Shown in pieces: positions 856-50,675 of a stretch of 64,000 nt of DNA. A program made the position numbers and the translations under genes. Position 1 is the first letter of the stretch, and every line of letters begins with the position of its first letter. Source of the stretch: Blasia pusilla (taxonomy: Eukaryota); NCBI GenBank assembly GCA_050084515.1, contig CM114271.1, forward strand, positions 7,626,001-7,690,000, in the 5' to 3' direction. The notes under the pieces are model-generated. The model was not told the DNA's origin, did no database searches, and was given only the letters and a program-made list of their open reading frames with translations.

Positions 856-939
856 CTTCTCACCACCGCTTCAACTTCCTCAGGTATTCCCCTGCTTGAG
901 CATCCTTCATATATCCTTCACGAATCCTTCTCTCCAGAT

Positions 940-2217: not shown

Positions 2218-2634
2218 GAGATGCGGTAAGAGGAGAGGAAGAGAGGAGAGAGGAGAGAGGAAGAGAGGAGAGAGGAGAGAGGAAACTACCTTCAACCGAA
2301 ATAGATACTTTTTTTTGAAGAGAGTTTCCGTTACGTTGAAGAGAGGAAACTTTTTGTGTGATTTTTTTTGCAATTTATTGTTCATTTATTAAACAATCCC
2401 ACAGTTTTTTTTCCTCTTCCATATTTTGGCAACCCCTGTGAGTCGGACGAGTTGCAAATTGCACAAAATTTACAAAACTGAAAAATCAGTGGAATCATAA
2501 GTGTGGAACCAATCACTTTTTCCATCCAAGGTCTGGAAAAAATCTATCATTTGCCCAGGGCTGAATAGAGTTCAAGCTCACAGTGAAGGTTGAGAAAAAA
2601 ATAAAAGTACAATCTAAAACCTCATTTTGCATCC

Positions 2635-5600
2635 TCAAAGTGGTTTGTTTAAAATACTTCAAACTTCTTTGAGGGACAAAATTGGTTGGTGGATTCCTAC
2701 TCCTACCTCCGACTCTCTTAAAACTACTAGCAACACATAGTACATGTGCTTACAAGGAAAATACCTTTTGCCACTTGTCTCTCTTTGGACAAAGTCATCA
2801 CATGAACATGTGGGAAAGCAACAGATGTGCACCACATACACCCCTGTGACACTTGAATTTACAGTGTTGTTCCTGACCCAATACATCCTTCCTATTCCAT
2901 TTCCACTCAGGACATCTTTCGTGGCGATGATCTCCATTTTTGCCTCCCGAGCTGCTGCAATTCGTTTTGCTCTCTCCACCGTTGGCCTACACATTTTGTT
3001 TCTCTTCACCCCATTTCTAGACTCAAACAGAAATAATGGATTGAGATCATCCATCTTATCCGGGTACATATTGACATCAATCTTGGGTTGAATACGAAAT
3101 GCGAAGGTCTGTAATCTGAACATGCTCGAACTTCCCCCATCTATGAGTGCAAACCGGCACTTGTAAGATTGTCCACCGTCTTGAGTGCGATTCGTACTGT
3201 GGCGATGGGCCAAATCGTGGGGGTATTCCCGGGAGCTCCAATGGTAGCCGGATAAGACTTCCGGAAAGCGCAAGATTCATTTGGGCAGAAGAAGTACTTC
3301 AATTGATCCCCGGTCCTCGTGAAACGATCAAAGGTTTGGAGTCCCCAAAACCCAGGGTCGTCGTCTAGTCCTTATGCGATTCTTATTTAGGAAAGTGCCG
3401 CATGCTCTCCTAATGCCATCAGATCCTGCCTTGCAAGTGAGTCCACGTCCTGGGTTGCTTCGAGATATATGCCACCGTTTTAGGTTGCAATCCACTTTCA
3501 TTACCGGAATCCCATATTGTTGAACCACCCCAGTGACAGGATGTTGCGAACTTCCAGCAACGGAGGGCTTTTGAAATAAAACATTCACTGATTTTGGAGA
3601 AGTAACTCCATCACGGATTTGGGGACGGGTCCGGTCCCCGAATACCAGGCGGTGTAATTTCCTCATCCAAATCAATCACCGGATTTGTTCCTCGATCTTT
3701 GCCTCTTCACTGCTGAAGTCAAGATACTTATCTGGTCTCCACGAGTCTCGTTCGGACTGCTCCACCACCATCTGTATGGGACGTCTTGAAACCCGCCCAC
3801 AAATATCCCCACCTATGTGTACGTCTTGCTCGAGTGGAGTTCTAGCTACGCACCGGTTGAAGGCTTCGACATACAATTTTTCATCACCAGATCTCACACC
3901 GCCTACGACATAGAGCTCGTAGATCGCGGCCCTTTTCCTTTTGTTATGCCTTTTGTGAGGAAGATATGGGATCTTTTTGCAAAGCGTAGCATTGCTCTTG
4001 CCTGGTCTTGTTGGCATGCCTCCACAAGTGAAATTCGTTGGCATGCTTGTGACGACCTCAAGAGGAATGAACACTTTCGCTCCACTTATGTTGGGGCGAG
4101 GGCATTTTCATGAACGTTCAATCCACGCAACGACGGCAATGTTAGAAGGAGCGAAAATAACCAGGAGTCAAAGAAATAAGCGGCGTGTCGGAACCAAAGC
4201 GGGTTGCAGGCCGAGGCATCCCATGAGCGACTCGTGACCCGTCGGGTCCCGGCGTGTTGTAACCTTAAACCCACCTCGCAACCCGTCGGAACCCGGCGGG
4301 TTGCAAGGCCGAGGCATCCATGAGCGACTCGTGACCCGTCGGGTCCGGCGGGTTGCACACTCGGGGCGACACCAAACATCTGGATGCAACCCGTCGGTTT
4401 CCGTCGGGTTGCACCCCTTTGGGCAACCGTCGGTTTCCGTCGGGTTGCACACTCGAGCAACCCGTCGGTTTCGTCGAGTTGCACACTCGGGCAACCCGTC
4501 GGGTTGCACACTCGCAACCCGTCGCATCCGACTGACTTGCTTGGTTTCTTGGGTTTGAAATCCATATAATTCCCACGCTTCTCACCCCTGAGCTACAACT
4601 TTACAAACAATTCTCAGCGTGAGCTTGACAAGACAAAATATGAACTCACTGCCTGAAGTTTCCCCATTGTCTCATACATACAGTCCACCAACTCAACCAA
4701 GAGCACAACTCTTTGTACTTCCCCTCAATCGCATGCTTCCTCCACCACCCATAAAGTTCTTCTGGCGGGTCCATGGCCTGCTTCAAGGTTTCTTTGTCCT
4801 TGCGGCATTGGAGTAGAGTGACATGCTCTCTCCTCTTATTCTCCTTGATGCAAGATTTGGTGTACCGGGTCACTGATCTGTTGCCAATGGAAAGCATCCG
4901 ACCTTTCCCTCTCGGTTGAACCTCTCCACCCAGAACACTTCCCGGATAGCAATCCACCCAGGTTGTACATTGTCCGCCATGAACCCATAAATTTCGGAGG
5001 TGGCCTTTTGTTTTCCTTCGGCTCAATAAGAGTAACCAAAGACACATCTTCAAAGCGCCAACGTCTTACGCCTTTACTTCACACACAAATATAGTTTTGA
5101 GTCCCTTCTCCACATGGTCATAAACGTGAGCACCCATCGTCAACCATCCGTTCAGCACTCTGTAGCAAATATCAAAGCCGACCAGCTCGTAAAGATCTTC
5201 CCCTTCCCTCATTCGATCTATAAGATCGAGGCCACTCGAGGACTGTGGTTGACATTTTGAAGACATAGGCCTGGATCCCTCGCCTCCTTGGCCCATGAAC
5301 GCCATCTCTCGAATGAATGGAAATCTGGAGTTGGCCTTGATTCAGCGATGGCATCCATTTCGGCCGTCTTTCCATCCAGAACTCGTATCTCACGCAGCAA
5401 ATTCCGGAAGCATTCAGGATCAGCGAGAAATGCGAGATTTTCCCAGAGTTGCTTCTCCTCAACCGTTGTGATCTCGCCCTGTCCAGGGATTCCAAGAAAT
5501 TGTTCACAAATTTGTGATGCCGTTGTGAGCTTGATCCCGGGCTTTGAACCGGAGAGTTTCAAGACCTCGGCTACTTTCTTCGCCACATCCTCCTTGATGT

Positions 5601-6468
5601 GTCTTTGAATTGCATCGGTCACAGGATGAGTGTGGGAGCCAACATGAACTGCCAGCCTTGTATACTACGACGTGGAGCCCAAGTCATGGACAATGAAAAA
5701 TATGTATGCAGGACACGCTCCAACGCAGAAGGGCGATGCCTGACAATGAGGACATCGATGGTCTCCCGGCGGTATTGTGGCACCCACCTCGTATGGAGTT
5801 TCTGCATTCTTGGGGGGGAATTGCGACGTATTGACTCGCCCGTTGCGCTCTAGATACGGGCATGCTGGACTTCTACACTCCAAGGCTCCCACGCATTGGC
5901 GGCGGAAGACAATCCAAGGACCATCTGGGATGGAAGCACTGGTCCGTTGAAGCCTGCACCATCGATGACAATCAGACTTTCTGTCCATACCCTTCAGGCG
6001 TCCTCCATCCTTCTTTTGAGCAGGAGCAGCAAGTGGAGGCAACTCAAAAATGCAATTACCATCGTACGTGGGCAGCAACTTGTCGACAAGAATGTGCTTC
6101 AACATTTTCAAGGGCAGAGACAAAAGCAAACTATTGCCTGATACTCGCAAGAGGAACGAGTAGGCGGACACAGGGCCCGATTGGTGTCAAGCCGGATCCA
6201 TCGAGGTTGATAACATCCGAATCTCTTCAGGAAGAACAACAATGTTACAAGTGTGCGAAGTTGGAGTCGGCCGGATCTGCAGAGCTTGGAGTTGCAAGCG
6301 AGAGCTCGGAGCACTAGGAAATTCTAGACTGTCTACTTGAGAAAGAGGCAATTGAGGGGCATGCCGTAAACTCTGTATTGACCATTTGCTCTGGTAGGAG
6401 ATTCCATACTTTCTGATCGAGGTCACTTGCTGGACCGTCTCACCTATTATGTCTTCCGTACCTTCCAC
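2635..6468 (-). pseudogene. MULE transposase copy 1 (GCM/WRKY-like zinc domain, DDE core, SWIM), frameshifted, one intron at about 4130-4650
   Basis: RQCVGALECRSPAC...CPH...HTHP; FDICYRV (D1); FMADN (D2); DAFHWQQ (C/D-x2-H); AESVH-like (E); C-terminal CSCDDF...PCKH SWIM. Start codon uncertain. Confidence 0.8.
4200..4530. repeat. Cluster of GCAACCCGTCGG-N3-CCGACGGGTTGC-type palindromes in the transposase intron
   Basis: Repeated gcaacccgtcggtttccgtcgggttgca and variants. Confidence 0.9.
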
Positions 6469-6674
6469 CCTAACATCTTTGGATACAAAGATGGTTCCAA
6501 TTTGAAGAAGAAATCGAGCAGCAGAAAATTTTCATCCTTTGCTCGAAAGACTCACGAGCTTGGGGTCGAATGATTTTGATTGAGGAAGGGCCGCGGATGC
6601 GCCACAAGTGAGCTTAACATAATTATCCATTCCAAGAAGATTCCTCAGGAGGAGGCGAGAATGAGAATATTTAA

Positions 6675-6680
6675 TTTATA
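6675..6680 (-). promoter_or_regulatory. Candidate TATA box of the transposase gene
   Basis: TATAAA about 200 nt upstream of the ORF, conserved in copy 2 (~50445). Confidence 0.4.
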
Positions 6681-6829
6681 GTGAATAGGAAACAGATACT
6701 CCTCGATGATTTTTCTTGACAAGATGAATTCGGTGGGGACATTGTGCGACACAATGGATCCATCAGTAACACATTCAATTTCATGTTGCAATATGTTACC
6801 GCATTTGGGAAGCGAGAGGGTTGCGCATC

Positions 6830-7560
6830 ACACTTGGAACCCGTCGGAGTCCTGGTAACTCGAAATTACCCGAAGCTTACGAAGCACGCAACCGTCGGCA
6901 TCGGACGGGTTGCACGCTCGCTAAACATTGTCGGCGAGCAACCCGTCGCTCTCCGACTTCTTGCCGATACCGCTCCTTCTTGCTCGAAGATGCCGGAGGC
7001 GTGCAAACCGTCTGTTCCCGACGAGTTCCGCGGGTGCCTCGCCTTTTAGCCCAAAGACGGCGAGGCGTGCAACCCGTCGCCGTCCAACGGGTTGCGCAAG
7101 GGCCTCGCCTTGTGGTGCACCAGCCGGACTCCGGCGACTTGCACGGGAAGCCATCGTTCCTAACCCTTGATGAGGGAAGCGTGCAACTCCAACAGTCTCC
7201 GACGGATTGCCCAAAATACGTCCCGTTCCCGTCCCAAACACGGCGGAGGCGCGCAACATGTCGGTCTCGGACGGCTTGCGCGGGTACCTCGCGTTGTTTT
7301 CCGAAGATGATGGAGGCGCTCAACCCGTCGGTCTCCGACCGATTGCTTTCGCGCGCGTGGCGGCGTTCGCGGAGGATGGCGAGGCGCGCAACATGTCGAT
7401 CTCAACGGGTTGCGCGGGTACCTTGCGTTCTTTTCCGAAGCGACGGGGCGCTCAACCCGTCGGTCTCCGGCGGGTTGCTCGCGCGCGTGGCGGCGTACCA
7501 GGATGGCGAGCAGCGCGCAACTGTCGGACTCCGGCGGGTTGCGATTTTTCGCGTCGGACT
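6830..7560. repeat. Palindrome cluster in the divergent promoter region of MULE copy 1
   Basis: Ten or more variants of caacccgtcgg...cgggttgc, dispersed and in degenerate tandem units. Confidence 0.85.
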
Positions 7561-7630
7561 TCCGTAACATCCGCACGTCGCCGTCGAAAGGACGAGCGGG
7601 ACCCAACGGTCAGCCCAACGGCTAGAAAAG

Positions 7631-7638
7631 TATAAATA
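7631..7638 (+). promoter_or_regulatory. Candidate TATA box of the cargo gene
   Basis: TATAAATA about 280 nt upstream of ATG 7913, just after the palindrome cluster. Confidence 0.5.
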
Positions 7639-9064
7639 GGGCAGAAATCGCTCATTTCCGGTTTCTCATTTCGCAATCTTCATTCCTCACTCCTCACTCT
7701 CCCGCGCAGCAACTGATCAAATAAGAAGGGGCATTTCACGGGGCGAAACATCGCGAGTCGATAGGAGGGAACGAGAGCGAGACGGTGCGACCAAGCGATA
7801 TCGGGACAATTCGAGCTAACCATCAAGGCGAGACGAGCTCCCATCTCGACATCAGCAAGGCGACTGATCAAGGGATTCGTCGTGGACATAGGTGGAGGAA
7901 TTTCCGGAAAAAATGACGAGGAAAAAAACACAAGCCAACAAGTCTGGGAGCTTCACTCCCAAGTCCATTAGGACTCCTGCGTTAGCTTCTCCTGGGCCTC
8001 GTTCGGCGAATGAAATTAGGCAGCAGGAAATCGAGGAGCGGGAAAGGGAAGCGGAGATGCACAACCAAGTGCTTCTGGCGAGACGTGTTCAAGCGGTGCT
8101 AGATAAACGAACGAAGAGGCCAAGACGTCGCAGGCCTTGAAGAAAAGGATCGCAGGCAAAAAAGAGAGAAAAGAAGCGTGACGGGCGTCGGTGAGGAGGG
8201 GAATTGGCTAAAGCGGCGGGAAAAAGCGATAGCCATTGGCGATAGCCCAACCCGTCCAACCGCAAGTGTTGAGATGCGGAAATGTCCCCACGAAGTCCGG
8301 GACACAATCAACATAGTGGAAACAACACCAGTTCAAATCGATGACGCGAGGTCATGAGGACCGCCCAAAGATGGAGATGGTGGACATGGCGAAGAAGCCG
8401 AGAGCGGTCATTCTCGACTCCAAGCCCGGCGGAGGACATCAACCTCTATCGGATCGACAAGTTCCCAATCGATTTGGCAGCCCCTGTCTCAGACAAGTTA
8501 GCTGGTCAAGAAACCGACTCCATTTTCGAACGGGTAAGAGAGGTTCGGGCTTTTTAATTATGTGAATTGCAATTCATTGGGATTTCGGTGTAGCTTATTC
8601 CTCTTGTCCGGTTCGACGGTGGTAAAGCGAGATGGCACTCATGGAGGGCCACAACGCCCCGAGGATTCCACTCTGCCGATTAAGGACAATGGAATACGTC
8701 CACGAAATACAGTCCGACGAGGACATCGCAAAGCTAAAACAATCAGCGGTGACAGCATCCTACGTGGACAGCTTTCCTCCCTTCTATGTTCAGCCTTACG
8801 ACGAGCATGGAACCCAAGCTCTGGTTACCGAGGAGGACTTGGAAAATCTCGACACATTCTGGAGGATGCGAGACCAGGACTTCAGAAGGCAAGTTGAGGG
8901 CACGGAATTCAGCTGGATGAGGAATCTGCATTTCTTCATCTGGGATGGAAATCACAGGTTCATGGCGTGGACCAAGTTTGCGGAGGAACCTCACGAGTTG
9001 CATTCTTAAAAATACGCCCCAATGAGTTGCATTCTTAAAAAAACAACCTCACAAGGCGGCCTAT

Positions 9065-9430
9065 TGAGCAACCCGTCGAACTCCGACGGTTTGCTTTGGG
9101 CCAAAAACTAGTTAAATCTATGTTCAATCAAACAAGTCGTCGGAGTCCGACGAGTTGCAATCTTAAAAAAACATCCGAAAAAGCGTGCAGTCCAGCAACC
9201 CGTCGGAGTCCGACGAGTTGCAATCTTAAAAAAACATCCGAAAAAGCGTGCAGTCTAGCAACCCGTCGGAGTCCGACGAGTTGCTTACCTGGCATTAGCA
9301 AGTCTGAATGCAAACCGTCGGACTCCGATGGGTTGCATCATTTAGCTTGTTGCTAGAATCCGACCCTGAGCTATGACGACCCGTCGGACTCCGACGGGTT
9401 GCAGGAACCCATGTAATTTCCTGACGGGTT
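9065..9430. repeat. Intronic palindrome array including 63-bp tandem units
   Basis: cgtcggagtccgacgagttgc recurs at 9138, 9201 and 9264. Confidence 0.9.
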
Positions 9431-11369
9431 GAGTTTGGATGTGCAGGATTGTATCGGAGGGGAATGTCACCCACCATTGGATCCAGGACTGCGATCGGGT
9501 GAGGAAGGTGCTTACAACGCACCCGGGAGAGTACAAGGGGTTCTTGGGCGATGCCCTCATCAATCAGATGCTTGCAAAGGGTGCTCAGATTAAGAAGAAA
9601 ACTTGGGCAAACAAGTTTATTTCTCAAGATGGGGCCGTAACCATCCTTTGCTGGTCGAAGATACAAGCCACGAAGAAAAGCGCTGCACTGGAGCTGGAGC
9701 GGAGGGAGAAGGTATCTGCGTCTGAGCACGCCAAATTCATCCAAGCTGCTGTATCTGTTGCAACGAAATACACGGTGAGCAAGATGCAGCGATACATCAG
9801 CATTCTCAACCCCGAACTTGGTCTGGAGTTCTACAAGGAGCTCAAGGCGATTATCAAGCGTCAGCGGAAGAGGGATGAAGATCCGCATGGTCGGATTGGG
9901 GAGAAAGTTTCGCTGGATCGCGTGCATTGTTTTGCGTTATCCGGGATTAGTGAGTTCAGGAGGATACGACTGATGAAAATCAGTCTCGAGGGCTCAGAGG
10001 CCGGAAGAGGGCAAAGACACCATCCTCCGGTGTGTCCGATCCGTGATCTCGCATTGGCTCGTGAATGGTCGTTCGGGACGCGTTGTGGGTAATCGGGAAG
10101 TCCGTCTTTGGGCCGATGCAAGCGGAGCTCAGAAGATTAGAGCCCATTCCGCCGGAAGCAAACCTTGAAAGTTCTGGAGATTACAAGGTTTGGCTCGACG
10201 ACATCCGAGACAAGCCAACCAAGAACCCTGGATTCAAGACCATGTTCAAGGTTTGCGTCCTCCCTCAGGCAGAGCTTGACGAAGAAGTAGAGGGTAACAA
10301 ACGGGATCAAGCGAAGAAGAAGCGAGATCTACAGGAGCAGACGGCCGATAATGTTCGACTAAAAGCTGCCCAACGGATGGTATTCATGTACCTCGTCTAG
10401 TGTAAGAATGCAGGTACGTGGGGAAAATTACCGGTAGCCTTGAAATTGTGGGCTTTGCCGCCGGATGCAGAGACATTCTCCATGTACGACGTGGAGATGG
10501 GTCAGCATATGTCGGATTGGGAGGTGGAGAATTGCCCCATTTGGCTCGACTTCAACGATTCTGAAGACATCACGGATAAGGACTTACGAGTGCTTCATGA
10601 TGCAGTGGCCTCAGGACAACCCGACATCCCCAATTTCGTCCAGCCTGAAGACTTCTTCGGAGGAGATGAAGAAGAGCAGGCCCACGAGACAGCTGAGTTG
10701 GCTTCCAAGGTCCGGACAACCAAAGACAAATCCACAGCGGGTCTCAAAGGCAAGGCGAGGGGAGGGAAAAATTCAGAGGCCGAGACTTCCCAAAGAGAGC
10801 TGAAGATGAGAGGCCGAGGCGAAATCGTCCGACGAGCAGGGAGAGAGCGTCCTCCTTCAGTTCACCTCTTTACAGGATGACCTGAACAGCTTCAGTTCTC
10901 AAGCGTCGACAACTGTCATCGAAAAATTGACAACGTTGGGACGGAAGCTCCAACAAAACGGGCACGCTGCCTGGACGGTGAATGGAGTGGTGGAAGAGGT
11001 TGCGGTGGATCTCTTGATCGCCGATCTGCCCTCGGGGTTGCGACTTTGGGGCAAAAATCCGCGGACGAGGTACTGAGTGGAATCGCCGCTCACTTATGAC
11101 CGATTGCACTTTTGTTCTCCTTTGAAGACGCCTATCCCGAGTGGCGGGGCTGCTTCTTGGTGTTTTGGAGGGAGCGAGGAGGAGCTCTTCAACCTCGGTC
11201 GTCAAGAGGTCGCTAAAGTGGAGGACGGCACAATCGTGGATCATCAAAAACGAGTACCCACTCCGATCCGCGACGAGTCAAATTCGGGTAAAGCTCAATT
11301 CCTGTACAATAATTTCAATTATCTTATAATGATGTGTAGAATGAGAGTCAATCTGGGTTTTTTTTGTCC

Positions 11370-11735
11370 GTGAGCAACCCGTCAGAAGGCGACGGGTTGC
11401 TTGCTTAGAGCAGCCCATGCTAGGCTGAGAGCAACCCGTCGGTTTCCGACGGGTTGCATCTTTCCCACATACACAGGGAAAACCGCGGTGTACGTGCAAC
11501 CCGTCGGAACTCGATGGGTTGCAGTTGATTTTGGTTTTTGGATGCAACCCGTCTAATAGCGACGGGTTGCTCTCAAGCAAGCATGGGCTGGTCTAGGCCA
11601 GCAACCCGTCGCCTTCCGACGAGTTGCATCCGAAAACCAAAATCAACTTGGAAAACCCAAAAGCAATTGCAACCCGTCGGGTTCCGACGGGTTGGTCAGG
11701 GACAAAACAACCCATCGGACTCCGACAGGTTGATC
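11370..11735. repeat. Intronic palindrome cluster inside the methyltransferase-like region
   Basis: About 7 copies, e.g. gcaacccgtcggtttccgacgggttgca at 11431. Confidence 0.9.
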
Positions 11736-14126
11736 CAAAGTCAATTATTGAAAATCTTCTCAAGGCGACTTCTTAAGTTTCTGACATTGTTTCGTCTTGA
11801 TTTCTGAGATGGACCACTCCCTACGTGTCTTTGCCGTTCGGCCCGAGCACAATTTCCAGGTGTTCAAGATCCAGGATCCTGTGGATCCATGCTCAGATGG
11901 GTACAGCTTAGATAGTTTGTACAATTCCCCCCCGGGGATTTACATGCAAAGACAGTACCCCACTTCTGGGAGGAAGGGAAAAGTCGCCAGCCCTGATGCA
12001 AACACTCATTGAGCTCTGCTCAAGGCGGGGTGACTTGGTGTTTGACTTAGTGGGCCTTTCAGGGGCGAGTATCAGAGGCGCCTGGCAGAGTGGCAGGAAC
12101 ATTCTTTGCCTCGAGAGAAGGCAGGAACTGTTTGACCTTTGCAAGGAGGCAAAGGCAGAATACGAAAGGCTCGTTGGGGCGTACAACTCTCCACCGAAGC
12201 CGAGAGCTCCTGTTCCAGAGCCACCCTTGGTAGTGACTCCATCGTCACTTCCAACGATTCCCAAAATCGGGAGGGCAAGGCCGAAAGTGATTTTGCAAGA
12301 GCTCTCGGACGATGACGAGTGAGTTCAAAGAACTCAACGACCCAGATTGATTGCAGAGTTGGAGTAGGGAGTTTTTTGATAATTTGGCAAAAGATTTCAT
12401 AGAATAGATCAAATATACAGTTCCGAGCTTTTTTCGGATGATATAAAGCAAAAGATTTTTTCGATCGATGGTGGTGCTTGTAAATGTTTGCTGATCATTT
12501 TGTCTTTTCGAATGTGATCGTCTATGTACTCCACGGTCTTCTACTTTGCAACCCGTCGGATTTCTCCTGCTTGCAATTTTCACTTTATGACCACTGCAAC
12601 CCGTCGGATTTCTCCTCCTTGCAACTTTTTGCCTTTTGACCACTCGACCCTTTTTACCACCTCGGGCGCTTGATCGATTCCGGACAGATTGCCCGATCGG
12701 ACCCTTTTGGATCAGCGATCTGGCGGGCTTCTTCCTTGGCACCTTCCCGCCTTTCGTAAAAGGCGGCGAGGCTTCTTTTTCTTCTCTCGAGGCGTGTTGG
12801 ATTCCTTCTACTGTCAGGCGGTTGCCATAGTGGTATTACCAGGGGACGGAGCGAGATATTGATTTGGATGGGTGTCACATTGCGAGCGTACAAGGTATCT
12901 TTGCCAAGGAAGGCGGTGGGACTCGAGACAGGTTACATGGGACCGTTATAGTGTACCAAGGGGGGGGCCAAGGCTCTCCAATTCGCCAACATTTTCGATC
13001 CCCGTCTACAATCGGCTAGAGGAGCCACTTGAATCCCAGGACATTCCTTTGGTACTGTCACCGAGGAGAGTTAGGAGTAAATTTGTAGATGACGAGGCTG
13101 AAGAAATCATAGACTAGGTGAAATGTACATTTCCGAGGTTCCTTCGGAGGTAATAAAGGACGAGATTTTTTCAACCCATAATGGTGTTTGTAAAATTTTT
13201 ATGGAATATGTTTTTGGACTTGTGGATTGTGTTCTTTTAGCTACTCAGAATTACAATTCTACAACCCGTATGATTCCGACTTTTTGCTTTTTGCCCACTG
13301 CAAATTTTTAACCATTTCCAGGCAACCTCTCGGATTTCGACAGGTTGATTTCGCTTGAGTGATCGGACTCTATCCCGGTGAGACCAACCGGCGCATTGTG
13401 GCGGGCTTCTTGACTTTTGGCTCGTTCCCCTTCATTCGTCGAACCAGTTGTAGGTTTCTTTTCTTGTCTAAGATGTGCAAGATTCCTACTACCTGTCGGA
13501 TTGCCATTTCGGATTCCCAACCCGTTAGATCGTCGTGGGTGCAGGGTGGAAGAAAATCACTTCTAAAAATCTTTCGTTTCTTATGGTGAGCTTTCTTACG
13601 GGTTGGGAGGGGTGCAGCTTCTCGGTTTCTGAGCCTTAGGATCTGATTTTTTCACATTTCAGAAAGTTGGTCTTGAGCAGACACCATTCATAACCGACAA
13701 AAAGTTGGTTATGGGGCAATTTAGGGGAGGCCATGATGCAGGCAACAATCCGTGCAAAAAGAGAGGTACCCATCCGGGTGGTCCTCCAACAGAAATACCA
13801 AGGGCACTGTTTTTTGTTGACCGAGACAGGGAATGTTGAGAAACTTAGGCTCACATGGACGGTGATGGAAAAATGTTTAGGGTGGTCTTATGATGTCTCC
13901 TTTTTTCTCGCCTCCAGGAAAGAGGAGGTTTTTTTAGGGCCAAATGTGGACCACTACCTACTCTCTTCTAAAGATTTCCTGAATTTGAAAGCAAACGAAA
14001 ATTTTAAATATGTCAAAAAGTTTTGAAGAGAGGAGGCGGATTTGGCCCTTTTTTTTTAAGAGAGACTCTCCTTTCTTCCTCTCTTCCTCTCCCCTCTTAC
14101 TCTCTCCTGCCAGAATACCAGCCCCC

Positions 14127-15769
14127 TCCTGATCTCTGCGTATATTGCTTGTAGCCTCCTCCACTTGTCTCATCAAGCAGAGAAATCCATCCTCCAACCC
14201 AGTCATGCTCCTCCTTGTGATCGAGTTCACCAACTCCATTTTCGCTGGAACCTCACGGACCAACCGCACCTGTAACCGTTTGCCTTTTAGCAAGATGCTC
14301 AACCTCAATGGTCGGCGTCTTAACTCCACCTCATATGCATCTAGGAATGTATTCCCCAAAACTCCGTCCATGCCATCCATTTCGCACACAGTGAAATTCT
14401 CCTTCAACTCGAATACTCCGCATCCTACTGTCAAACCCAAGACCAAATCAGAAGTCCGATGAGACTTGCCTCCTGCAAATCCCACTCGAACAGGCTCGTC
14501 CGCCTTAGAGGTAGACAGCCCCAGTTCCTTCACGATTCTCGGGCTTAGGAAGGAGTGCGAAGCACCTGTATCCACGAGCAACAACACATCGCGATCAGCA
14601 ATCTTGGATCTTAGGTACACCAAATTGTGCGTCCTCTTGGTGACTTGAAGGGACGTCTCGAGATCGCCCGCCAACAGATGCTTAGCAGCAAACGCAATCA
14701 TACTCCCATTACTAACCTTCAGTTTCGAACACCCTTTCGACAGGTGCCCTGGTTCGCCACAGTTGTAGCATACGACCTTGCCGTTCCCTGACTTTGAGTG
14801 TTGGCCTCCTTTTGGTTTTGCATGAAGTTCCACTCGTTTTGCTGCCGCGGCATACGACTCTCCTGGTTCGTGCTGGCCCCCACTCCAGCCTCTTTTGAAC
14901 GCCTCCTTATTTTTCGACTTCTTTGAAAAAACTTTTGGCTCGAAGGGTTTCTGGGTTTGGACCTCATCGTCCCCAATCCGCTCCGCTAGCTTCAGAAGGT
15001 CCGCGCACGTCTCTGGCAATGTCGGCATTCGGTAAAGGGCCTTTTCAGCGCTCGGCTTGAGTCCACTAATGAAGATAGCCTTCTTCGCGTGTTCATCCAT
15101 CTTTGGACTAGAAGTCAGCTTCGCACTAAACTCCCTCACATAGGCGCTTAAGGAACCACTCTGCCGCGTCCGCACGCATTCCACCGTGTCATGCAACCCT
15201 TGGTACTCCGGAGTGAACCGATCCCCAATCAACTCCTTGAACTCCTCCCAACTCAGAGGAGACTCGCCGCCCAGATATTCCTCTCATTGAGCTGTCCACC
15301 ATTGTAGAGCATGATCCTTCAGGAAAGAAACGGCTACCGTCACCTTGTCCTGCTCAGCAGCCCTCTTCGCCTCGAGGTACAGTTCCAGTTCCGTAAGGAA
15401 ATCCTTCACTTTCCGCGAGCGCCCCACTCCCGTGAATGGTGTGGGTAGGTTCGTCTTGCAGAGCTTTTTGCCCACACCCGGGTTTCAAATGGCCTCTAAC
15501 TCTGCAATCCGCTTGCTTTGCTGGGACATCTGCTCCACCAACACCTTCAACAAGTCCAACGTCTGGCTCCACTCCGTCCTTTCCCCTGAGTTTGGGCCCA
15601 CTGGCCCCGCGGAAGGAGTCGCCTCTGGGACGTCCTCACGACTGGCATTCAGCTCTTCGGGAGTCTCCGTCTCCTCTATAGCTTCACGGTCCGGCATTGG
15701 TTCCTCTCTTGGTTCACGTCGCTTGATTCGGCGCTTCTTGGCTTGTTCTCCCTCGATCGCCATTTCCAA
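14127..15769 (-). pseudogene. Gypsy A gag and aspartic protease
   Basis: Gag PTPFTG...FLTELELY...LKDHALQWW; zinc knuckle CYNCGEPGHLSKGC; protease LLVDTGASHSF and VLGNTFL. Confidence 0.92.
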
Positions 15770-42010: not shown

Positions 42011-43926
42011 AGGGGGTTGGTATTCTGGCATGAAAGAGCAAGAGAGGAGAGTCTCTCTTCAAAAAAAAGGGCCAAATCTGCCTCCTCTCTTCAAAAAAAT
42101 TTGACATATTTGAAATTTTTGTTTCCTTTCAAATTCATGAAATCTTTAGAAGAGAGTAGGTAGTGGTCCACATTCGGGCCTAAAGAAACCTCCTTTTTCC
42201 AGTGGGCGGAAAAAAAGTAGACATCATAAGACCATTACAAACATTTTTCCATCACTCTCCATGTGAGCCTAAGTTTCTTAACATTTCTTGTCTCGCTCTA
42301 CAATAAGCAATGCCCATGGGTATTTTTGTTGGAGGACCACTGATGGATCTTGATCGATGCACGATGCCAACCTCTCTTTTTGCAGGGATTGTTGCCTGCA
42401 TCATGGCCTCCCCTAAATTGCCTCATAACCAACTTTCTCTTGGTTATGAATGGTGTCTGCTCAAGACCAACTTTGTGAGAATGTGAACACATTAGATGAT
42501 AATTGAACCAAAAGATTGTTAGATGTCTGGAGTAAAGAGGAGTTGATGTCCCTTCATTCAGATCCTAAATGTGAGAAACCGAGAAGCTGCACCCCTCCCA
42601 ACCCGTCGGAATTTTACAGGTTGCAACTCTTGCAATCCGTCGGAATCAGACGGCTTGCACCCCTTGCAAGCAAGCTCACCATAAGAAAGGAAAGATTTTG
42701 AGAAGTGATTCCATTCCACCCTGCACCCACAAAAATCCAACAGGTTGGGAATCCGAAATGGCAATCCGACAGGTAGTAGGAATCCTGCACATCTTAGACA
42801 AGAAAAGAAGCCTACAATAGGTTTGACAAATCTAGGGGAACGAGCCAAAAGTGAAGAAGCCAGCCACAATGCGTCAGAAGTTGGTCTCACAGGGAAAGAG
42901 TTCGATCACTCAAGCAGCTAACCTGTTGGAATCCGACACCTTGCCTGGAAATGGTTAAAAAGTTGCAGTGGTCAAAAAGTGAAAAGTTGCAACCCTTTGG
43001 AATCATACGGGTTGCAAAATTGTAATTCTGAGTAGCTAGAAGAGCACAATCCACAAGTCCAAAAACAATATTCAACAAACTTTTACAAACACCATTATCG
43101 GTTGAAAAAATCTCGTCCTTTATTACATCCGAAGGAATCTTGGAAATGTACATTTGACCTAGTCTATGATTTCTTCAACCTCGTCATCTACAAATATACT
43201 CCTAACTCTCCTAGGTTCATGTACAAAAGGAATGTCCTGGGATACAAGTGGCTCCTCTGGCCGATTGTAGACGGGGATCGAAAATGTTGGCAAATTCGAG
43301 AGCCTTGGCCCCCCCCTAGGAACACTGTAACGGTCCCATGTAACCTGATTTGAGTCCCACCGCCTTCCTTGGCAGTATATCTTGTACACTTTGCAATGTG
43401 ACACCCATCCAGTATCAATATGTGCTCCGTCCTTGGAAATACCATGATGGCAATCCAACAAGTAGTAGGAATCCAAGATGTCTTAGAGAAGAGAAGAAGC
43501 CTACGCCTTGTTTGACGATACTAGGGGAAGGTGCCAAAGTGAAGAAGCCCGCCAAAATGTCTCTAAAGAGTCCGAAAGAGTCCGATCACTCACGCAGCCA
43601 ACTTGTCGGAATCCGACTGGTTGCTTGGAAGTGGTTAAAAAGGTGCAGTGGTCAAAAAGTGAAAAGTTGCAAGCCGTGGAAATCCGGCGGGTTGCAAAAT
43701 AGAAGTCCTCGGAGTACATAGACGATCACATTCGACAAGACCAAAAAAGATATTCAACAAACTTTTACAAACACCATCATCGTTCGAAAAAATCTTGTCC
43801 TTTATTACATCCGAAAGAAGCTCGGAACTGTACATTTGATCTATTCTATGAAATATTTTGCCTCATCATCAAATAAATCCCTACTCCAAACGTTGCAGTC
43901 AAGCTGGGTCCTTGAGTTCTTTGAAC

Positions 43927-48821: not shown

Positions 48822-50675
48822 TGTTCCCGAAAATGCCTCCTATGGACAAGGAAATTGCTCTCTATGCACGATGAATCGGCTCAAGGAATCGCCTTTATGA
48901 GTCGCCTTGCTGATGAGGCGATGAGTCCCCTTGATGAATCGGCTTGCTGATGTCGCGATGAGTCGCCTTGATGAGTAGCTCGAATCATCTCGCGATCGTT
49001 CGCTCGAATCGTCTCGCGATCGGCTGATGAGTGGCCGTGTAAAGCACCCCTTGGTATCTGGTCAGCTGTTGTGCGGAAGAGCAATTGAGATCTTGAAACG
49101 AAAAACCGGAAATGAGCGAACCTTCCCCTATTTTTACTTTTCGAGCCGTTGGGCTGACCGTTGGGTCGCATCGTCCTTCCGACGACGACGTGCCGGCCAT
49201 TATGGAAGTCTGGACGTGAAAAAAACCAACCCAACAGCTTCGACACATTGCACGCTTCCCGAGGGTTCAAGGCATCCGTCCTCGTGGCAACCCGTCGGAG
49301 ACCGACAGGTTGAGCGCCTCCGTCGTCTTCAAACAAGAACACAAGGTACCCGCGCAATCGTCGGAGACCGACAGGTTGCACGCCTATGTCGTCTTCGGAC
49401 AAGAATGCGAGGTACCCGCGCAACCCGTCAAATTCTGATGGGTTGCACGCGTCCCTCGTCTTGGGATAACAAGCCAGGCTTCCCGCGCAACTCGTCGGAG
49501 GCCGACGGGTTGCGCGCCTCCTTCGGAAGGACGATGCGACCCAACGGTCAGCCCAACGGCTCGAAAAGTATAAATAGGGGAAGGTTTGCTCGTTTTCGGT
49601 TTTTCGTTTCGCAATCTCAATTGCTCTTCCGCGCAGCAGCTAACCAGATACCAACGCTTACAAGGCGAGGCACTTGCGCAACCCGTCTGAGGTCGACGGG
49701 TTGCGCGCCTCCACCGTCTTTGGGCAAGAAGGTGTGGCCCGTGCAGCTCATCGGAAACATACGTGTTGCACCCTTCCTTAATGTAAGTGTAACAAGGTGA
49801 GGCAATTGCGCAACCCGTCTGAGGCCGACAGGTTGCGCGCCTCCCCCGTCTTCGGGCAAGAAGGCGCAGCACCCGCCCAACTCGTCGGAGATTGACGGGT
49901 TGCACGCTTCCTTCATGTTAGCGTTACAAGGTGAGGCAGAAGCGTGCAACCCGTCCGAAGCCGACGGGTTGCACGCTTTGCTTATCTTGGGTTAATAGGC
50001 AAAGTACTAGGGTTCCCTGTCGGTTATTGACAGGTTGCACGCTTTTCTATCCCTCGGGTAACAATGCGACAACGCATAGTTCCGAGGCAACCCATTGCAA
50101 TCCGACGGGTCACAAGATCTACCTTGAGTTGGACAATCCCGCAAAAGTCCCCAACGATTGGTTGCCTTAGCATATGCAAGCGATATCTTGTGTTTGGTGC
50201 TAGAAAAATCGACTCAAAAAACCTTTGGTCGGCAAGAAGGGGGTACCAACCCAACGGACTCCGACGGGTTCCAACAAAATGAAGTGCATGCTTCGAAACC
50301 AACATCTTTGATTCCCAAATTCTGCAACCAACCTAACTCCAACAGGTTGCAACAGAATTGAATCCATTGTGTCAAACATTTTCAACTACCAAACTTCATC
50401 TTGTCAGTCAAATTCTGTCAGGAGAATCTGAAACCCTATTCACTATAAATTAAACATTCTCATTCTCATACCAATTCTCTCTCTCCTCCCAATGGAATCT
50501 TCTCGGAATGGACAATTATGTGAAGCTCACTTGTGGCGGTCATCTAGCAGCCCTTCCTCAATCAGAAATCGTTCGACCGCAAGCTCGTGAGTCTTTCATA
50601 GCAGTGGATGAAAATTTTCTCTCAGTTTGATTTCTTCTCCAAATTGGAACCATCTTTGTATCCAAGGATGTTAGG

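What the first reader, a model, noticed from the sequence alone, without database searches (positions are those of the whole stretch)
7913..12322. Mutator-like transposon carrying a spliced ParB/Srx plus prokaryote-type N4/N6 DNA methyltransferase-like gene
Seen: both MULE copies carry a large intron-containing second gene, divergent from the transposase. It has a ParB/Srx-like block (IAKLKQS...PPFYV...IWDGNHR..AW). Its C-terminal half has motifs in the beta-class amino-MTase order: motif-IV-like VDLLIADLPS, then (copy 2) FADAYLSDRGYFLVL, then X-I-II-like KSLALMQTLIELCSRPGDLVFDLVGLSG...QSGRNILCLE. Established: the N6_N4_Mtase family has D/S-PP-Y early and GDxVLDPFxGSG...GR...IE late; ParB-MTase fusions occur in phages; horizontally acquired 4mC methyltransferases are known in bdelloid rotifers and Marchantia. 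Inference: this is a eukaryotised bacterial or phage-like module mobilised by a DNA transposon, possibly a self-marking or anti-silencing system. I do not know a described MULE family with this cargo.
Basis: partly seen in the sequence, partly recalled or inferred. Interest (0 to 1): 0.92.

Follow-up and report, generated by a model that had tools for sequence, protein, structure and literature searches.

The report
Transposon-borne ParB–DNA-methylase-like gene, decayed
Two old, broken copies of a 12-kb jumping gene each carry, besides their transposase, a large spliced gene that joins a ParB-type DNA-handling domain to a bacterial-type DNA methylase-like domain, a kind of transposon passenger recently reported in algae and here found in a land-plant-like genome.

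Summary
Coordinates 7913-12322 run exactly from the ATG to the stop of a 4-exon gene that points away from the transposase. The carrier is an 11.9-kb DNA transposon, 2218-14127, with a perfect 9-bp target duplication. A second, inverted copy lies at 42011-54897 and has its own 9-bp duplication.

The N-terminal exon folds confidently (pLDDT 89). Its fold matches are ParB/Noc/sulfiredoxin only, but weak (best E 6e-3), and Pfam sees nothing.

The C-terminal part is a permuted beta-class N6/N4 DNA-methylase fold. Pfam, PHROGs, PADLOC and PDB profiles hit motifs X-I-II. Foldseek on a relative's model returns only such enzymes first (E 8e-10). The catalytic motif is D-L-P-S/T rather than (D/S)PPY.

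Full-length relatives occur in a liverwort (1,191 and 1,207 aa), and a truncated relative (605 aa) in a fern.

Both window copies are pseudogenes. Even so, the gene evolved under purifying selection (dN/dS 0.11-0.26), and related copies are transcribed and spliced.

New here: 68 copies of a 27-bp palindrome fill the introns and spacers of the element, and none lies outside it.

ParB-plus-methylase passenger proteins on algal transposons are already in print (Ectocarpus, 2025). This is therefore a new land-plant member of a known kind. Self-marking remains an inference.

The parts
2218..14127 (+). Copy 1 of the transposon (11,910 bp), inserted between pieces of a Ty3-type LTR retrotransposon
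   Evidence: The 9-bp direct repeat CCTGATCTC lies at 2209-2217 and 14128-14136. Homology to copy 2 starts and stops at these ends. The flanks hold gag-protease, RT and integrase, all on the - strand.
42011..54897 (-). Copy 2 of the transposon (12,887 bp), inverted relative to copy 1
   Evidence: The 9-bp direct repeat CGTCGAGGC lies at 42002-42010 and 54898-54906. Identity to copy 1 is 75-90%.
2659..6186 (-). Decayed transposase gene of copy 1, ending in a SWIM-like zinc finger (2659-3276)
   Evidence: ORFs are listed. SWIM PF04434 gives E 0.013, 15.5 bits, under its cut-off. No MULE-domain Pfam hit was found. The Atlas features of the copy-2 ORF 51432-52277 resemble MULE/ZSWIM clusters at 0.90-0.92, which is a lead only. 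dN/dS against copy 2 is 0.26-0.47.
6761..7912 (.). Spacer between the two divergent genes, holding 9 copies of the palindrome
7913..8533 (+). Cargo gene exon 1 (charged, low-complexity N-terminus); frameshifted in copy 1, and with an in-frame TAG in copy 2
   Evidence: The pairwise alignment shows the lesions and the donor GTAAGA at 8534. dN/dS is 0.23.
8632..9009 (+). Cargo exon 2: ParB/Srx-fold domain with DGNHR. Its 3' end and donor are lost in copy 1. The copy-2 equivalent is 48087-47629.
   Evidence: The AlphaFold model has pLDDT 89.4. Foldseek top hits are ParB/Noc/Srx, best E 5.7e-3. D, G, N and H are invariant and R is at least 90% conserved in 40 sequences. dN/dS is 0.15.
9447..11287 (+). 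Cargo exon 3: central region without a known domain, then the N-terminal half of the methylase-like domain (motif IV-like VDLLIADLPS near 11000). Copy 1 has 1-nt deletions, an in-frame TAG at 10398-10400 and indels after 11061.
   Evidence: Structure and lesions come from the alignment. Four reads in run X20 carry the exon-2 3' end directly before 9447. dN/dS is 0.14-0.26. P0114 aligns collinearly.
11809..12322 (+). Cargo exon 4: C-terminal half of the methylase-like domain (motifs X, I, II: EKSPALMQTLIELCS..GDLVFDLVGLSG..GRNILCLE) plus tail. Copy 1 has a frameshift at about 11946-11969. Copy 2 has a 13-nt duplication in motif I.
   Evidence: Hits: PF01555 E 1.7e-4, phrog_3008 E 1.2e-5, PDLC03371 E 1.3e-5. 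Two reads in X20 join 11287 to exon 4. dN/dS is 0.11-0.21.
9031..9446 (.). Intron 2 with 6 palindrome copies spaced about 63 bp apart
11288..11808 (.). Intron 3 with 7 palindrome copies
   Evidence: Palindromes. RNA depth is zero in 11441-11774.
43927..48821 (-). Cargo gene of copy 2, with the same exon order and its own stops and frameshifts. DGNHR reads DGNHG here.

Best explanation
SHOWN
- The window holds two decayed, inverted copies of a roughly 12-kb cut-and-paste DNA transposon, probably of the Mutator superfamily.
- Besides the transposase, each copy carries a divergently oriented 4-exon accessory gene of about 1,150-1,200 codons.
- Its product has three parts: an N-terminal ParB/sulfiredoxin-fold domain with a near-invariant WDGNHR..AW motif; a central region of roughly 600 residues with no recognisable domain; and a C-terminal permuted (beta-class) N6-adenine/N4-cytosine DNA-methylase fold.
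- The methylase-like fold keeps the SAM-binding motifs X, I and II. Its catalytic motif IV reads D-[LM]-P-[ST]-G instead of (D/S/N)PP(Y/F/W).
- The gene was kept by purifying selection while the two subfamilies diverged. Related copies are still transcribed and spliced. Full-length relatives exist in a liverwort and a truncated relative in a fern.
- The non-coding parts of the element carry 68 copies of a 27-bp palindrome, GCAACCCGTCGGA-N-TCCGACGGGTTGC, which occurs nowhere else in the window.

INFERRED
- The ParB-like domain, possibly nucleotide-gated through the DGNHR arginine, recognises these palindromes in the way ParB recognises parS.
- This concentrates the protein on its own element.
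- There the methylase-like domain either marks the DNA (6mA or 4mC) or, if inactive, binds or shields it. Either outcome would help the element escape host silencing or assist transposition.

My odds: domain identities and transposon-accessory status about 0.85. Self-targeting through the palindromes about 0.35. Real methyl transfer about 0.3.
For: Element:
- Perfect 9-bp target duplications flank both copies.
- Copy 1 sits between gag-PR and RT-INT pieces of one retrotransposon.

Gene model:
- GT-AG sites are shared by both copies.
- Four X20 reads carry the exon-2 end directly before 9447, and 2 X20 reads join 11287 to the start of exon 4.
- Liverwort protein P0114 aligns collinearly on both copies, from ParB to the C-terminus.

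ParB:
- AlphaFold gives pLDDT 89.4 and pTM 0.83.
- The PDB hit list is ParB/Noc/KorB/Srx/SbnI, with probabilities up to 1.0.
- The viral library returns phage ParB-like proteins, including a phage DNA methylase at rank 25.
- DGNH is invariant in 40 sequences.

Methylase:
- PF01555 matches the window exon (E 1.7e-4) and relatives (E 9.4e-6 to 5.2e-5).
- 4 of 26 liverwort relatives carry a precomputed PF01555 hit.
- PHROGs gives E 2e-7 to 1e-5, and PADLOC alignments span residues 1000-1166 of P0114.
- The family profile hits beta-class M1.HpyAVI/DpnA at E 0.004.
- Foldseek on the relative's model puts beta-class enzymes at all of the first 34 ranks shown. These are M1.HpyAVI (8e-10), CcrM, MboIIA, BceJIV, rotifer N4CMT and RsrI.

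Selection:
- dN/dS is 0.11-0.26 in 8 of 9 in-frame segments, against 0.9-3.2 in 6 shifted-frame controls.

Palindrome:
- 37 of 37 pattern matches lie inside the copies, with 0 expected by chance.
- 68 of 68 PWM sites lie inside the copies, and 0 lie in cargo exons.
- Information content is 0.8-2.0 bits at the 26 arm positions of the 27-mer and about 0 at the central N and in the flanks.

Precedent:
- The same self-binding and self-modifying idea is proposed for algal ParB-methylase and ParB-oxygenase accessory proteins, the latter with adjacent inverted-repeat arrays (passages; section 8).
Against: - No Pfam, PHROGs or PADLOC model detects the ParB domain, and the family profile finds no ParB-type chain among PDB sequences. 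No Foldseek match reaches E 1e-3.
- The window's own methylase exon stays under Pfam's cut-off (22 against 26.7 bits). The N-terminal half of the domain, with motif IV, gets no profile hit at all.
- The methylase model is of low confidence (pLDDT 54, pTM 0.55) and is of a liverwort relative, not of the window's protein.
- Motif IV lacks the second proline and the aromatic residue in all 21 relatives in which the script found it, so classical amino-methylation may be lost.
- Both window copies are dead.
- RNA support is thin. Only 28, 52 and 54 reads were laid, and only 2 of those 134 were at least 99% alike. They therefore come from other copies, and strandedness assumes a dUTP-type library.
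- Nothing ties the palindromes to the ParB domain rather than to the transposase. Only 2 of the 68 are perfect palindromes.
- No MULE transposase profile hit was found.
Confidence: 0.6

Rival explanations
1. The methylase-like domain is a pseudo-enzyme. It keeps the fold and perhaps SAM or DNA binding but transfers no methyl group. The protein then works as a ParB-like DNA clamp or bridge for the element, for example in end pairing, nuclear retention or recruiting host factors. This overlaps with the best explanation except for the chemistry.
For: Motif IV reads D-[LM]-[PS]-[ST]-G in all 21 relatives in which the script found it, and D-L-P-S in both window copies. None has PP plus an aromatic residue. 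The fern relative P0090 has D-V-P-F, which suggests drift away from a canonical ancestor. The domain is nevertheless under purifying selection (MT-N 0.26, MT-C 0.20), as expected for a retained non-catalytic role. Non-catalytic partners such as METTL14 are a known precedent; that is recalled, not tested here.
Against: The motif I and II residues that bind SAM look intact (D-F-A-G-G-W-G, then E at the end of strand 2). The altered motif IV is itself conserved between distant lineages, which could equally mean a changed substrate rather than loss of activity. No assay has been done.
Confidence: 0.3
2. The 27-bp palindromes have nothing to do with the cargo protein. They are transposase-binding subterminal or internal repeats, or a hairpin-forming mini-satellite or small-RNA source that spread within this family. 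The ParB-methylase protein acts elsewhere.
For: Copies also lie near both ends of the element: 2427 and 13259-13320 in copy 1, and 54672 and 42596-42630 in copy 2. Five lie inside the transposase gene body. Arrays have a regular period of about 63-67 bp, typical of satellite expansion. Subterminal inverted-pair binding sites for transposon proteins are known from En/Spm; that is recalled.
Against: Most copies are internal, with 22 of the 32 in copy 1 in the inter-gene spacer and the two cargo introns. The 27-mer is conserved while the rest of the repeat unit carries about 0 bits, which points to a site under constraint rather than a whole-unit satellite. The red-alga preprint reports inverted-repeat arrays next to another ParB-type accessory gene.
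Confidence: 0.3
3. The gene is a captured host gene (Pack-MULE style) of no use to the element.
For: Mutator-like elements often capture host fragments (passage of PMC6431247).
Against: The gene is complete, with its own start, introns and stop, and it points away from the transposase in both diverged copies. It shows dN/dS of 0.11-0.26 between transposon subfamilies. Relatives in the liverwort are multi-copy: 26 proteins in one search, many of them fragments. The same architecture is a transposon passenger in algae.
Confidence: 0.05
4. The carrier is not a Mutator-like element but belongs to another DDE superfamily.
For: Eighteen transposase ORF queries in 3 calls gave no PF10551, PF00872 or PF03108 hit; the loosest went to E 10, although HMMER's filters drop most matches above about 0.1. 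The terminal inverted repeats are short, imperfect and GA-rich. Red-algal Plavaka elements were first misfiled as MULEs because of shared accessory genes (passage).
Against: Both copies have a 9-bp target duplication, which is typical of Mutator as recalled. There is a C-terminal CxC...CxH SWIM-like finger (E 0.013). All ten best named Atlas clusters share a family or clan with the best of them, and the rows shown carry MULE, ZSWIM or ALS2CR8 (a lead only).
Confidence: 0.1

Closest known systems
ParB-like + N4C/N6A DNA methyltransferase accessory protein of the Sola1-1_Ec32 transposon of Ectocarpus (PMC12477816; passages read). [quoted passage not shown]
   Same: One large protein (1,104 aa there, about 1,150-1,200 here) with a ParB-like domain and an N4/N6 methylase domain. 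It is encoded on a giant DNA transposon on the strand opposite the transposase, and is proposed to bind and modify its own element.
   Different: The carrier superfamily differs (Sola1 against probable Mutator), as does the host (brown alga against a land-plant-like genome). Sequence homology to the algal protein was not tested because no sequence was at hand. Here motif IV is non-canonical and a palindrome array is documented. I could not see the paper's supplements or Fig. 1C.
Plavaka accessory genes PAG2 (PF01555 + SET) and PAG3 (ParB-like + 2OG oxygenase) of red algae, also on Chondrus Mutator and Bangiophyceae Zisupton elements (10.1101/2025.02.11.637652; section 8 and passages read).
   Same: Transposon passengers that combine ParB-type and PF01555-type modules. 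Arrays of inverted repeats lie next to the ParB gene. Copies are mostly degenerate and expression is low.
   Different: There the two modules sit in separate genes with other partners (SET, oxygenase). Here they are fused in one polypeptide with no SET or oxygenase.
Phage and prophage ParB-CTPase-fold / N6_N4 methylase (PF01555) fusion proteins (10.1101/2025.10.10.680097; passages read).
   Same: The domain order is the same, with ParB fold N-terminal and a beta-class methylase C-terminal. A phage 'DNA methylase' appears among the fold matches of the ParB model (rank 25).
   Different: The phage proteins are compact, without introns and without a roughly 600-residue spacer. No close sequence relative was found in IMG/VR (0 confirmed of 101 pattern matches). 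Descent from a phage gene is therefore plausible but not shown.
Beta-class N6A/N4C DNA methyltransferases with solved structures (M1.HpyAVI 5hfj/5hek, CcrM 6pbd, M.MboIIA 1g60, M.RsrI 1eg2, rotifer N4CMT 8s9m-o, M.PvuII 1boo).
   Same: Same permuted fold and motif order, IV ... X-I-II. The QKSLALMEKII...DIVLDPF.GSG block of DpnA parallels EKSLALMQTLI...DLVFDLVGLSG.
   Different: Motif IV is D-L-P-S/T rather than (D/S)PPY. Identity is 15-18% over the fold match.
Marchantia MpDN4MT1a/b 4mC methyltransferases (10.1101/2021.02.12.428880; passages read).
   Same: Beta-class amino-methylases of prokaryotic type in a bryophyte lineage.
   Different: MpDN4MT1 has TSPPY, no extra domains and is a host gene expressed in sperm.

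Membership tests
N6_N4_Mtase (PF01555), beta-class amino-methyltransferases | Score at or above Pfam's gathering cut-off (26.7 bits) | tested here: not met
   The window exon 11912-12322 scores 22.0 bits, E 1.7e-4. The copy-2 pieces give no hit. Relatives score 23.7-26.2 bits. 4 of 26 liverwort relatives carry a precomputed PF01555 hit.
N6_N4_Mtase (PF01555), beta-class amino-methyltransferases | Permuted order: catalytic motif IV region N-terminal, motifs X-I-II C-terminal, on a Rossmann-like fold | tested here: met
   The order is seen in the family alignment A3. The PADLOC PDLC03371 alignment spans residues 1000-1166 of P0114. Foldseek of the P0115 model gives beta-class enzymes only at the first 34 ranks shown, best E 8.1e-10 with 211-274 aligned columns. 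The model is of low confidence (pLDDT 54) and is of a relative.
N6_N4_Mtase (PF01555), beta-class amino-methyltransferases | SAM-binding motif I (D-P-F-x-G-S-G-T) and an acidic residue ending strand 2 (motif II) | tested here: met
   The window has D-L-V-G-L-S-G-A-S ... N-I-L-C-L-E. The liverwort proteins have D-F-A-G-G-W-G-A-T ... C-I-V-A-E. These are variant forms, aligned by HMMER to DpnA and RsrI.
N6_N4_Mtase (PF01555), beta-class amino-methyltransferases | Catalytic motif IV (D/S/N)-P-P-(Y/F/W) | tested here: not met
   It reads D-L-P-S in both window copies and D-[LM]-[PS]-[ST]-G in 21 relatives. No [DSN]PP[YFWH] was found in any stored protein. The fern P0090 has D-V-P-F.
ParB/Srx fold (ParB N-terminal, CTPase-type domain) | Profile match to PF02195 or a related model | tested here: not met
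   No hit in Pfam at E up to 1-5, PHROGs or PADLOC. The PDB sequence-profile search gave only an unrelated eL24 row at E 0.14. An Atlas ParB_N cluster scored 0.92 at rank 19, a lead only.
ParB/Srx fold (ParB N-terminal, CTPase-type domain) | Three-dimensional fold | tested here: met
   The model has pLDDT 89.4. The PDB matches are almost all Noc, ParB, KorB, sulfiredoxin or SbnI, with E 5.7e-3 to about 1, probability up to 1.0 and TM 0.37-0.47 on the query. The viral library gives phage ParB-like proteins, best E 1.3e-3. The E-values are weak, and none reaches 1e-3.
ParB/Srx fold (ParB N-terminal, CTPase-type domain) | Box II / P-motif arginine in a G-x-x-R..A context | tested here: met
   In W-D-G-N-H-R-x-x-A-W, D, G, N, H and W are invariant and R is at least 90% conserved in 40 sequences. 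Copy 2 has G in place of R. The equivalence to Box II is by position in the fold and by recall; it was not superposed.
ParB/Srx fold (ParB N-terminal, CTPase-type domain) | Following helix-turn-helix and dimerisation domains of partition ParB; nucleotide binding | not tested
   The central 600 residues have no Pfam hit.
Mutator superfamily (MULE) transposon | 9-11 bp target-site duplication | tested here: met
   Perfect 9-bp repeats flank both copies. The chance per junction is about 4e-6.
Mutator superfamily (MULE) transposon | MULE/MuDR DDE transposase domain (PF10551 or PF00872) | tested here: not met
   No hit in any transposase ORF; the loosest call asked for E up to 10, although HMMER's filters drop most matches above about 0.1. 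Atlas feature similarity to MULE/ZSWIM clusters is 0.90-0.92, a lead only. The ORFs are decayed and split by introns, so this failure is weak evidence.
Mutator superfamily (MULE) transposon | C-terminal SWIM zinc finger; terminal inverted repeats | tested here: inconclusive
   SWIM gives E 0.013, 15.5 bits, under the 19.6 cut-off. The ends share only a short imperfect AGG(T/G)G..GGTA motif plus GA-rich runs.
ParB-methylase accessory proteins of eukaryotic DNA transposons (algal class) | A single protein with ParB-like and N4/N6 methylase domains, on a DNA transposon, opposite the transposase | tested here: met
   The description of the class comes from passages of PMC12477816.
ParB-methylase accessory proteins of eukaryotic DNA transposons (algal class) | Sequence homology to the algal proteins | not testable with these tools
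   No algal sequence was retrievable.

The most novel reading that the evidence does not exclude
Land plants (a liverwort, a fern and the source of this window) harbour an old lineage of Mutator-like transposons with their own 'parS-ParB-methylase' system. The ParB-like domain loads on 27-bp palindromes strewn through the element's introns and promoter spacer. The fused beta-class methylase, with its conserved non-canonical D-L-P-S/T site, then writes a non-5mC mark (4mC or 6mA) or an unusual modification on the element itself, as an epigenetic self-label that counters host silencing. Transposon-borne genes of this kind could also be the reservoir from which bryophyte host 4mC enzymes (MpDN4MT1) were recruited.
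Probability: 0.12. Interest if true: 0.85.

Novelty: new member of a known kind. Interest (0 to 1): 0.5.

Why it matters
Transposon passengers that could write or read DNA marks on their own element are a newly recognised class. So far they are described from brown, red and green algae.

This locus, with its liverwort and fern relatives, extends the class to land plants and to a probable Mutator carrier.

It also offers a concrete, testable cis-element. That is a 27-bp palindrome present 68 times inside the two copies and never outside them.

A conserved departure from the catalytic motif raises the question of whether these proteins methylate at all.

In bryophytes, 4mC made by a prokaryote-type beta-class enzyme is essential for sperm. 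A transposon-borne pool of such domains there is a plausible, untested source for that enzyme.

The two copies in this window are dead, so the value lies in the family rather than in this locus.

Tried and rejected
- No whole genome is held for this window, so family copy number and intact copies could not be surveyed.
- Word-based homologue searches found nothing with the window's ParB exon (longer proteins) or with its C-terminal exon (near lengths). The relatives came only from the HMMER scan.
- The family ParB profile against PDB sequences gave only an unrelated eL24 row at E 0.14.
- IMG/VR scan with the ParB alignment: 101 pattern matches, 0 confirmed.
- No listed holder of the stretch is on record as RNA. 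RNA evidence comes only from laying three raw-read runs that carry the same species label.
- The first dN/dS run used wrong frames for two segments, exon 1 and MT-C. It was redone, and the wrong-frame values serve as controls.
- One search was an empty script.
- Excising copy 1 in silico did not restore one long retrotransposon frame (455 against 441 aa). 'Inserted into a retrotransposon' therefore rests on the order and orientation of the flanking domains only.
- Earlier-findings look-ups gave nothing on this genome or sequence. By words they returned only prokaryotic ParB-plus-methylase defence pairs, which were not used.
- A trimethylguanosine-synthase reading (a UniRef automatic name for some relatives) was rejected. 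The protein ends about 60 residues after motif II, the catalytic-side strands lie upstream, and every profile and fold hit is to permuted DNA methylases.
- Iyer et al. 2011 (PubMed 21507349) is not held. It is cited only as listed in PMC12477816.

Full report
WHAT IS THERE

Self-BLAST of the window shows two inverted copies of one long element. Positions 2242-14082 (+) match 54887-42035 (-), at 88-90% identity on the transposase side and 75-82% on the other side.

Reading the ends gives exact limits:
- Copy 1 is 2218-14127, flanked by the direct repeat CCTGATCTC at 2209-2217 and 14128-14136.
- Copy 2 is 42011-54897, flanked by CGTCGAGGC at 42002-42010 and 54898-54906.

Two independent perfect 9-bp target-site duplications show that this is a transposon, inserted twice.

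Copy 1 lies between gag-protease on one side and reverse transcriptase and integrase on the other. All are on the minus strand and belong to a Ty3-type retrotransposon (Pfam).

The ends share only a short imperfect AGG(T/G)G..GGTA motif followed by GA-rich runs.

THE CARRIER

The transposase gene of copy 1 runs on the minus strand from about 6186 to 2659. It ends in a CxC...CxH finger that Pfam scores as SWIM at E 0.013, under the cut-off.

No transposase ORF hit the MULE, MuDR or FAR1 models in three Pfam calls, the loosest of which asked for E up to 10. The only other pointer is feature similarity of the copy-2 ORF 51432-52277 to MULE/ZSWIM clusters in the ESM Atlas (0.90-0.92, a lead).

With the 9-bp duplication, which is typical of Mutator by recall, I call the element a probable Mutator-like transposon. 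I do not treat this as established. Red-algal Plavaka elements were at first misfiled as MULEs for carrying similar passengers.

THE CARGO GENE

The finding's coordinates are exact. The ATG is at 7913 and the stop at 12320-12322.

I aligned the two copies and used read ends from three RNA runs that carry the species label of the best DNA holder. This gives four exons:
- exon 1, 7913-8533
- exon 2, 8632 to about 9030
- exon 3, 9447-11287
- exon 4, 11809-12322

Donor and acceptor sites are shared by both copies.

Read-level support for the splicing:
- Four reads of run X20 carry the end of exon 2, as it reads in copy 2, directly in front of 9447.
- Two reads of X20 join 11287 to the first bases of exon 4.
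- Depth is zero in 11441-11774, inside intron 3.

The reads are few: 28, 52 and 54 laid. Only 2 of those 134 are at least 99% alike, so they come from other family copies, not from this locus. They lie mostly with the first mate on the minus strand. That means sense transcripts only if the library is of the usual dUTP type.

Both window copies are pseudogenes:
- Copy 1 has frameshifts in exon 1 and has lost the end of exon 2. It has four 1-nt deletions near 10029-10078, an in-frame TAG at 10398-10400, indels after 11061 and a frameshift in exon 4.
- Copy 2 has an in-frame TAG in exon 1 and G in place of R in DGNHR. It has several frameshifts in exon 3 and a 13-nt duplication inside motif I.

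RELATIVES

A profile of the two ParB exons, scanned by HMMER against 1.84 billion representatives, found 111 proteins at E up to 1e-3, 37 of them at up to 1e-10.

I looked up 30 of these 111 representatives:
- 18 are Riccia sorocarpa (liverwort) proteins.
- 2 are Adiantum nelumboides (fern) proteins.
- 10 are unnamed environmental or assembly proteins.

P0011 (1,191 aa) and P0114 (1,207 aa) are full-length. P0114 aligns collinearly on both window copies from the ParB block to the C-terminus at 23-38% identity. This independently puts both domains in one gene.

A search with the C-terminal fragment P0115 found 26 more liverwort proteins. Four of them carry a precomputed PF01555 hit. Several carry UniRef automatic names, either 'DNA methylase N-4/N-6 domain-containing' or 'Trimethylguanosine synthase'.

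THE ParB-LIKE DOMAIN

No sequence profile sees it. That covers Pfam, PHROGs and PADLOC and PDB sequences (where the only row at E<=10 was an unrelated eL24 at E 0.14).

With a 40-sequence alignment, AlphaFold gives a confident model of the copy-2 exon, with pLDDT 89.4 and pTM 0.83.

Its Foldseek matches are homogeneous:
- In the PDB they are almost all Noc, ParB, KorB, sulfiredoxin and SbnI, with probability up to 1.0.
- In the viral library they are phage ParB-like proteins.

They are also weak. The best E is 5.7e-3 in the PDB and 1.3e-3 in the viral library, and none reaches 1e-3. TM on the query is 0.37-0.50.

The motif W-D-G-N-H-R-x-x-A-W is the family's signature. D, G, N, H and W are invariant and R is at least 90% conserved. 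It sits where ParB has its Box II arginine. In a recent survey that arginine was needed for nucleotide binding in diverse ParB-fold proteins (passage).

I accept the ParB/Srx fold. I leave open whether it is a CTP-type clamp, an ATP-binding module or a nuclease-like version.

THE METHYLASE-LIKE DOMAIN

The window's exon-4 ORF hits several libraries:
- the last 56 positions of PF01555, at E 1.7e-4 and 22 bits, under the 26.7-bit cut-off
- phage DNA-methyltransferase PHROGs, at E 1.2e-5 to 4e-5
- PADLOC type II methylases, at E 1.3e-5

The liverwort relatives score a little higher, at 23.7-26.2 bits.

The family profile hits beta-class M1.HpyAVI/DpnA (E 0.004), M.RsrI (0.13) and CcrM (0.3) among PDB sequences.

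Two PADLOC alignments run from the DDRGCLIIL strand to motif II. They cover residues 1000-1166 of P0114 and 105-271 of P0117.

The upstream half, with the motif IV-like block, gets no profile hit on its own.

An AlphaFold model of the relative P0115 is of low confidence, with pLDDT 54 and pTM 0.55. Its Foldseek list is nevertheless unambiguous:
- Ranks 1-34 as shown are all beta-class N6A/N4C DNA methylases. These are M1.HpyAVI (8.1e-10), CcrM, M.MboIIA, M.BceJIV, the rotifer N4CMT (2.5e-7), M.RsrI and TTHA0409.
- METTL3 follows at ranks 36-39 and M.PvuII at rank 41.
- Each match aligns 211-274 columns of the 273-residue query.

The catalytic tetrapeptide does not:
- It reads D-L-P-S in both window copies.
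- It reads D-[LM]-[PS]-[ST]-G in the 21 relatives where a script found it.
- No stored protein has (D/S/N)PP-aromatic.
- The fern protein P0090 has D-V-P-F. Its C-terminal block matches this region at BLASTP E 9e-4 and hhalign E 1.8e-4 with probability 48%.

SELECTION

I compared in-frame codons between the two copies.

| Segment | dN/dS |
|---|---|
| ParB exon | 0.15 |
| Exon 3, first part | 0.14 |
| Exon 3, later part | 0.22 |
| Methylase N-half | 0.26 |
| Methylase C-half | 0.20-0.21 |
| Start of exon 4 | 0.11 |
| Exon 1 | 0.23 |
| Short charged stretch | 0.61 |
| Six shifted-frame controls | 0.9-3.2 |

Most of the divergence therefore built up while the protein, including the methylase-like domain, was under constraint.

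Synonymous divergence is uneven across the element:
- 0.64-0.73 in the main segments of exons 2 and 3 (the short charged stretch gave 0.29)
- 0.15-0.32 in exon 4
- 0.12-0.20 in the transposase

This suggests recombination between subfamilies.

A NEW FEATURE: THE PALINDROMES

The odd repeated peptides in the six-frame translations come from one DNA motif, GCAACCCGTCGGA-N-TCCGACGGGTTGC.

- A 23-nt core pattern with up to 3 mismatches occurs 37 times. All 37 are inside the two copies, and 0 occurred in 100 shuffles.
- A weight matrix at 12 bits or more finds 68 sites, 32 in copy 1 and 36 in copy 2. None lies in the roughly 39 kb outside the copies.
- None lies in the cargo exons.

In copy 1 the sites are distributed as follows:

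| Location in copy 1 | Sites |
|---|---|
| Spacer between the two genes | 9 |
| Cargo intron 2 | 6 |
| Cargo intron 3 | 7 |
| Transposase gene body | 5 |
| 3' region | 4 |
| Near the left end | 1 |

Information content is 0.8-2.0 bits at the 26 arm positions of the 27-mer and about 0 at the central N and in the flanks. The site, not the surrounding 63-67-bp unit, is what is kept.

Only 2 of the 68 are perfect palindromes, and arm complementarity is 73%. That fits old, decaying copies.

HOW IT MOST LIKELY WORKS

Shown: this is a transposon accessory protein with a ParB-type module and a DNA-methylase-type module. The transposon lineage maintained it, and the element is studded with a private palindrome.

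Inferred, by analogy with ParB-parS and with what is proposed for the algal proteins:
- The ParB-like module recognises the palindromes and concentrates the protein on its own element.
- The methylase-like module then marks the DNA or, if inactive, binds it.
- The effect would be on host silencing or on transposition.

Nothing here tells ParB binding from transposase binding of the palindromes, and nothing shows methyl transfer.

WHAT IS KNOWN

The literature library was searched.

- Passages of the Ectocarpus transposon paper (PMC12477816) describe the same architecture on a Sola1 element. It is a 1,104-aa ParB-like plus N4C/N6A methylase protein opposite the transposase. The paper states that similar proteins are reported from green and red algal transposons.
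- The red-alga preprint (section 8 and passages) describes PF01555+SET and ParB+oxygenase passengers on Plavaka, Mutator and Zisupton elements. It also reports inverted-repeat arrays beside the ParB gene.
- Iyer et al. 2016 (passages) note ParB-HTH fusions to Dam-type methylases in chlorophytes and chytrids.
- ParB-PF01555 fusions are common in phages.

No paper in the held library describes such a gene on a land-plant transposon. The searches combining ParB with transposon and bryophyte or Marchantia returned only the red-alga preprint and unrelated bacterial papers. Repbase, Dfam and the papers' supplements could not be checked.

VERDICT

The domains, the fusion and the mobility are real, but the claim of an undescribed cargo is overtaken by 2025 papers, and enzymatic activity is doubtful.

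This is a new land-plant member of a known, recently recognised kind. It adds two useful points: a candidate cis-site, and a conserved non-canonical catalytic motif.

Noticed in passing
window 299-2088 (-) and 13958-15283 (-): Pieces of one Ty3-type LTR retrotransposon flank copy 1 in the same orientation. Integrase zinc-binding domain and RT lie to the left, and gag, zinc knuckle and aspartyl protease to the right. Copy 1 therefore seems to have landed between protease and RT. Removing it in silico did not give one continuous frame.
   Followed up: partly
copy 1 against copy 2, whole element: Synonymous divergence is mosaic: 0.64-0.73 in the main segments of cargo exons 2-3, 0.15-0.32 in exon 4 and 0.12-0.20 in the transposase. 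This suggests recombination between transposon subfamilies.
   Followed up: partly
window 47629-48093 (-), ParB-like exon: The best ESM Atlas feature matches are eukaryotic clusters in which 31-47% of members carry DUF3723 (Ascomycota), at scores 0.94-0.96, and an unnamed Cnidaria-rich cluster at 0.95. The DGNHR-type ParB-like domain may be far more widespread in eukaryotic mobile elements. By recall, DUF3723 is a frequent passenger of fungal Starship elements.
   Followed up: no
window 17157-21827: An AT-rich region (GC 0.35-0.40) holds long arrays of a roughly 150-bp tandem repeat, seen as many self-BLAST hits at 70-80% identity.
   Followed up: no
window 32561-35035 against 37066-39478, and 58411-60285 against 63441-61557: There are two further long repeat pairs: a direct pair at 71-72% identity and an inverted pair at 76%. 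They are probably other mobile elements.
   Followed up: no
window 2229-2284 and 14066-14105: Both ends of the element carry GA-rich simple repeats (AGAGGAG units) just inside the termini.
   Followed up: no
window 7600-12600, DNA run X1: 23,678 contig pieces of one DNA run were laid on this 5-kb stretch at 92% identity or more. Of these, 6,839 were at 99% or more. This fits a very abundant family in that species, although it is not a copy count.
   Followed up: no
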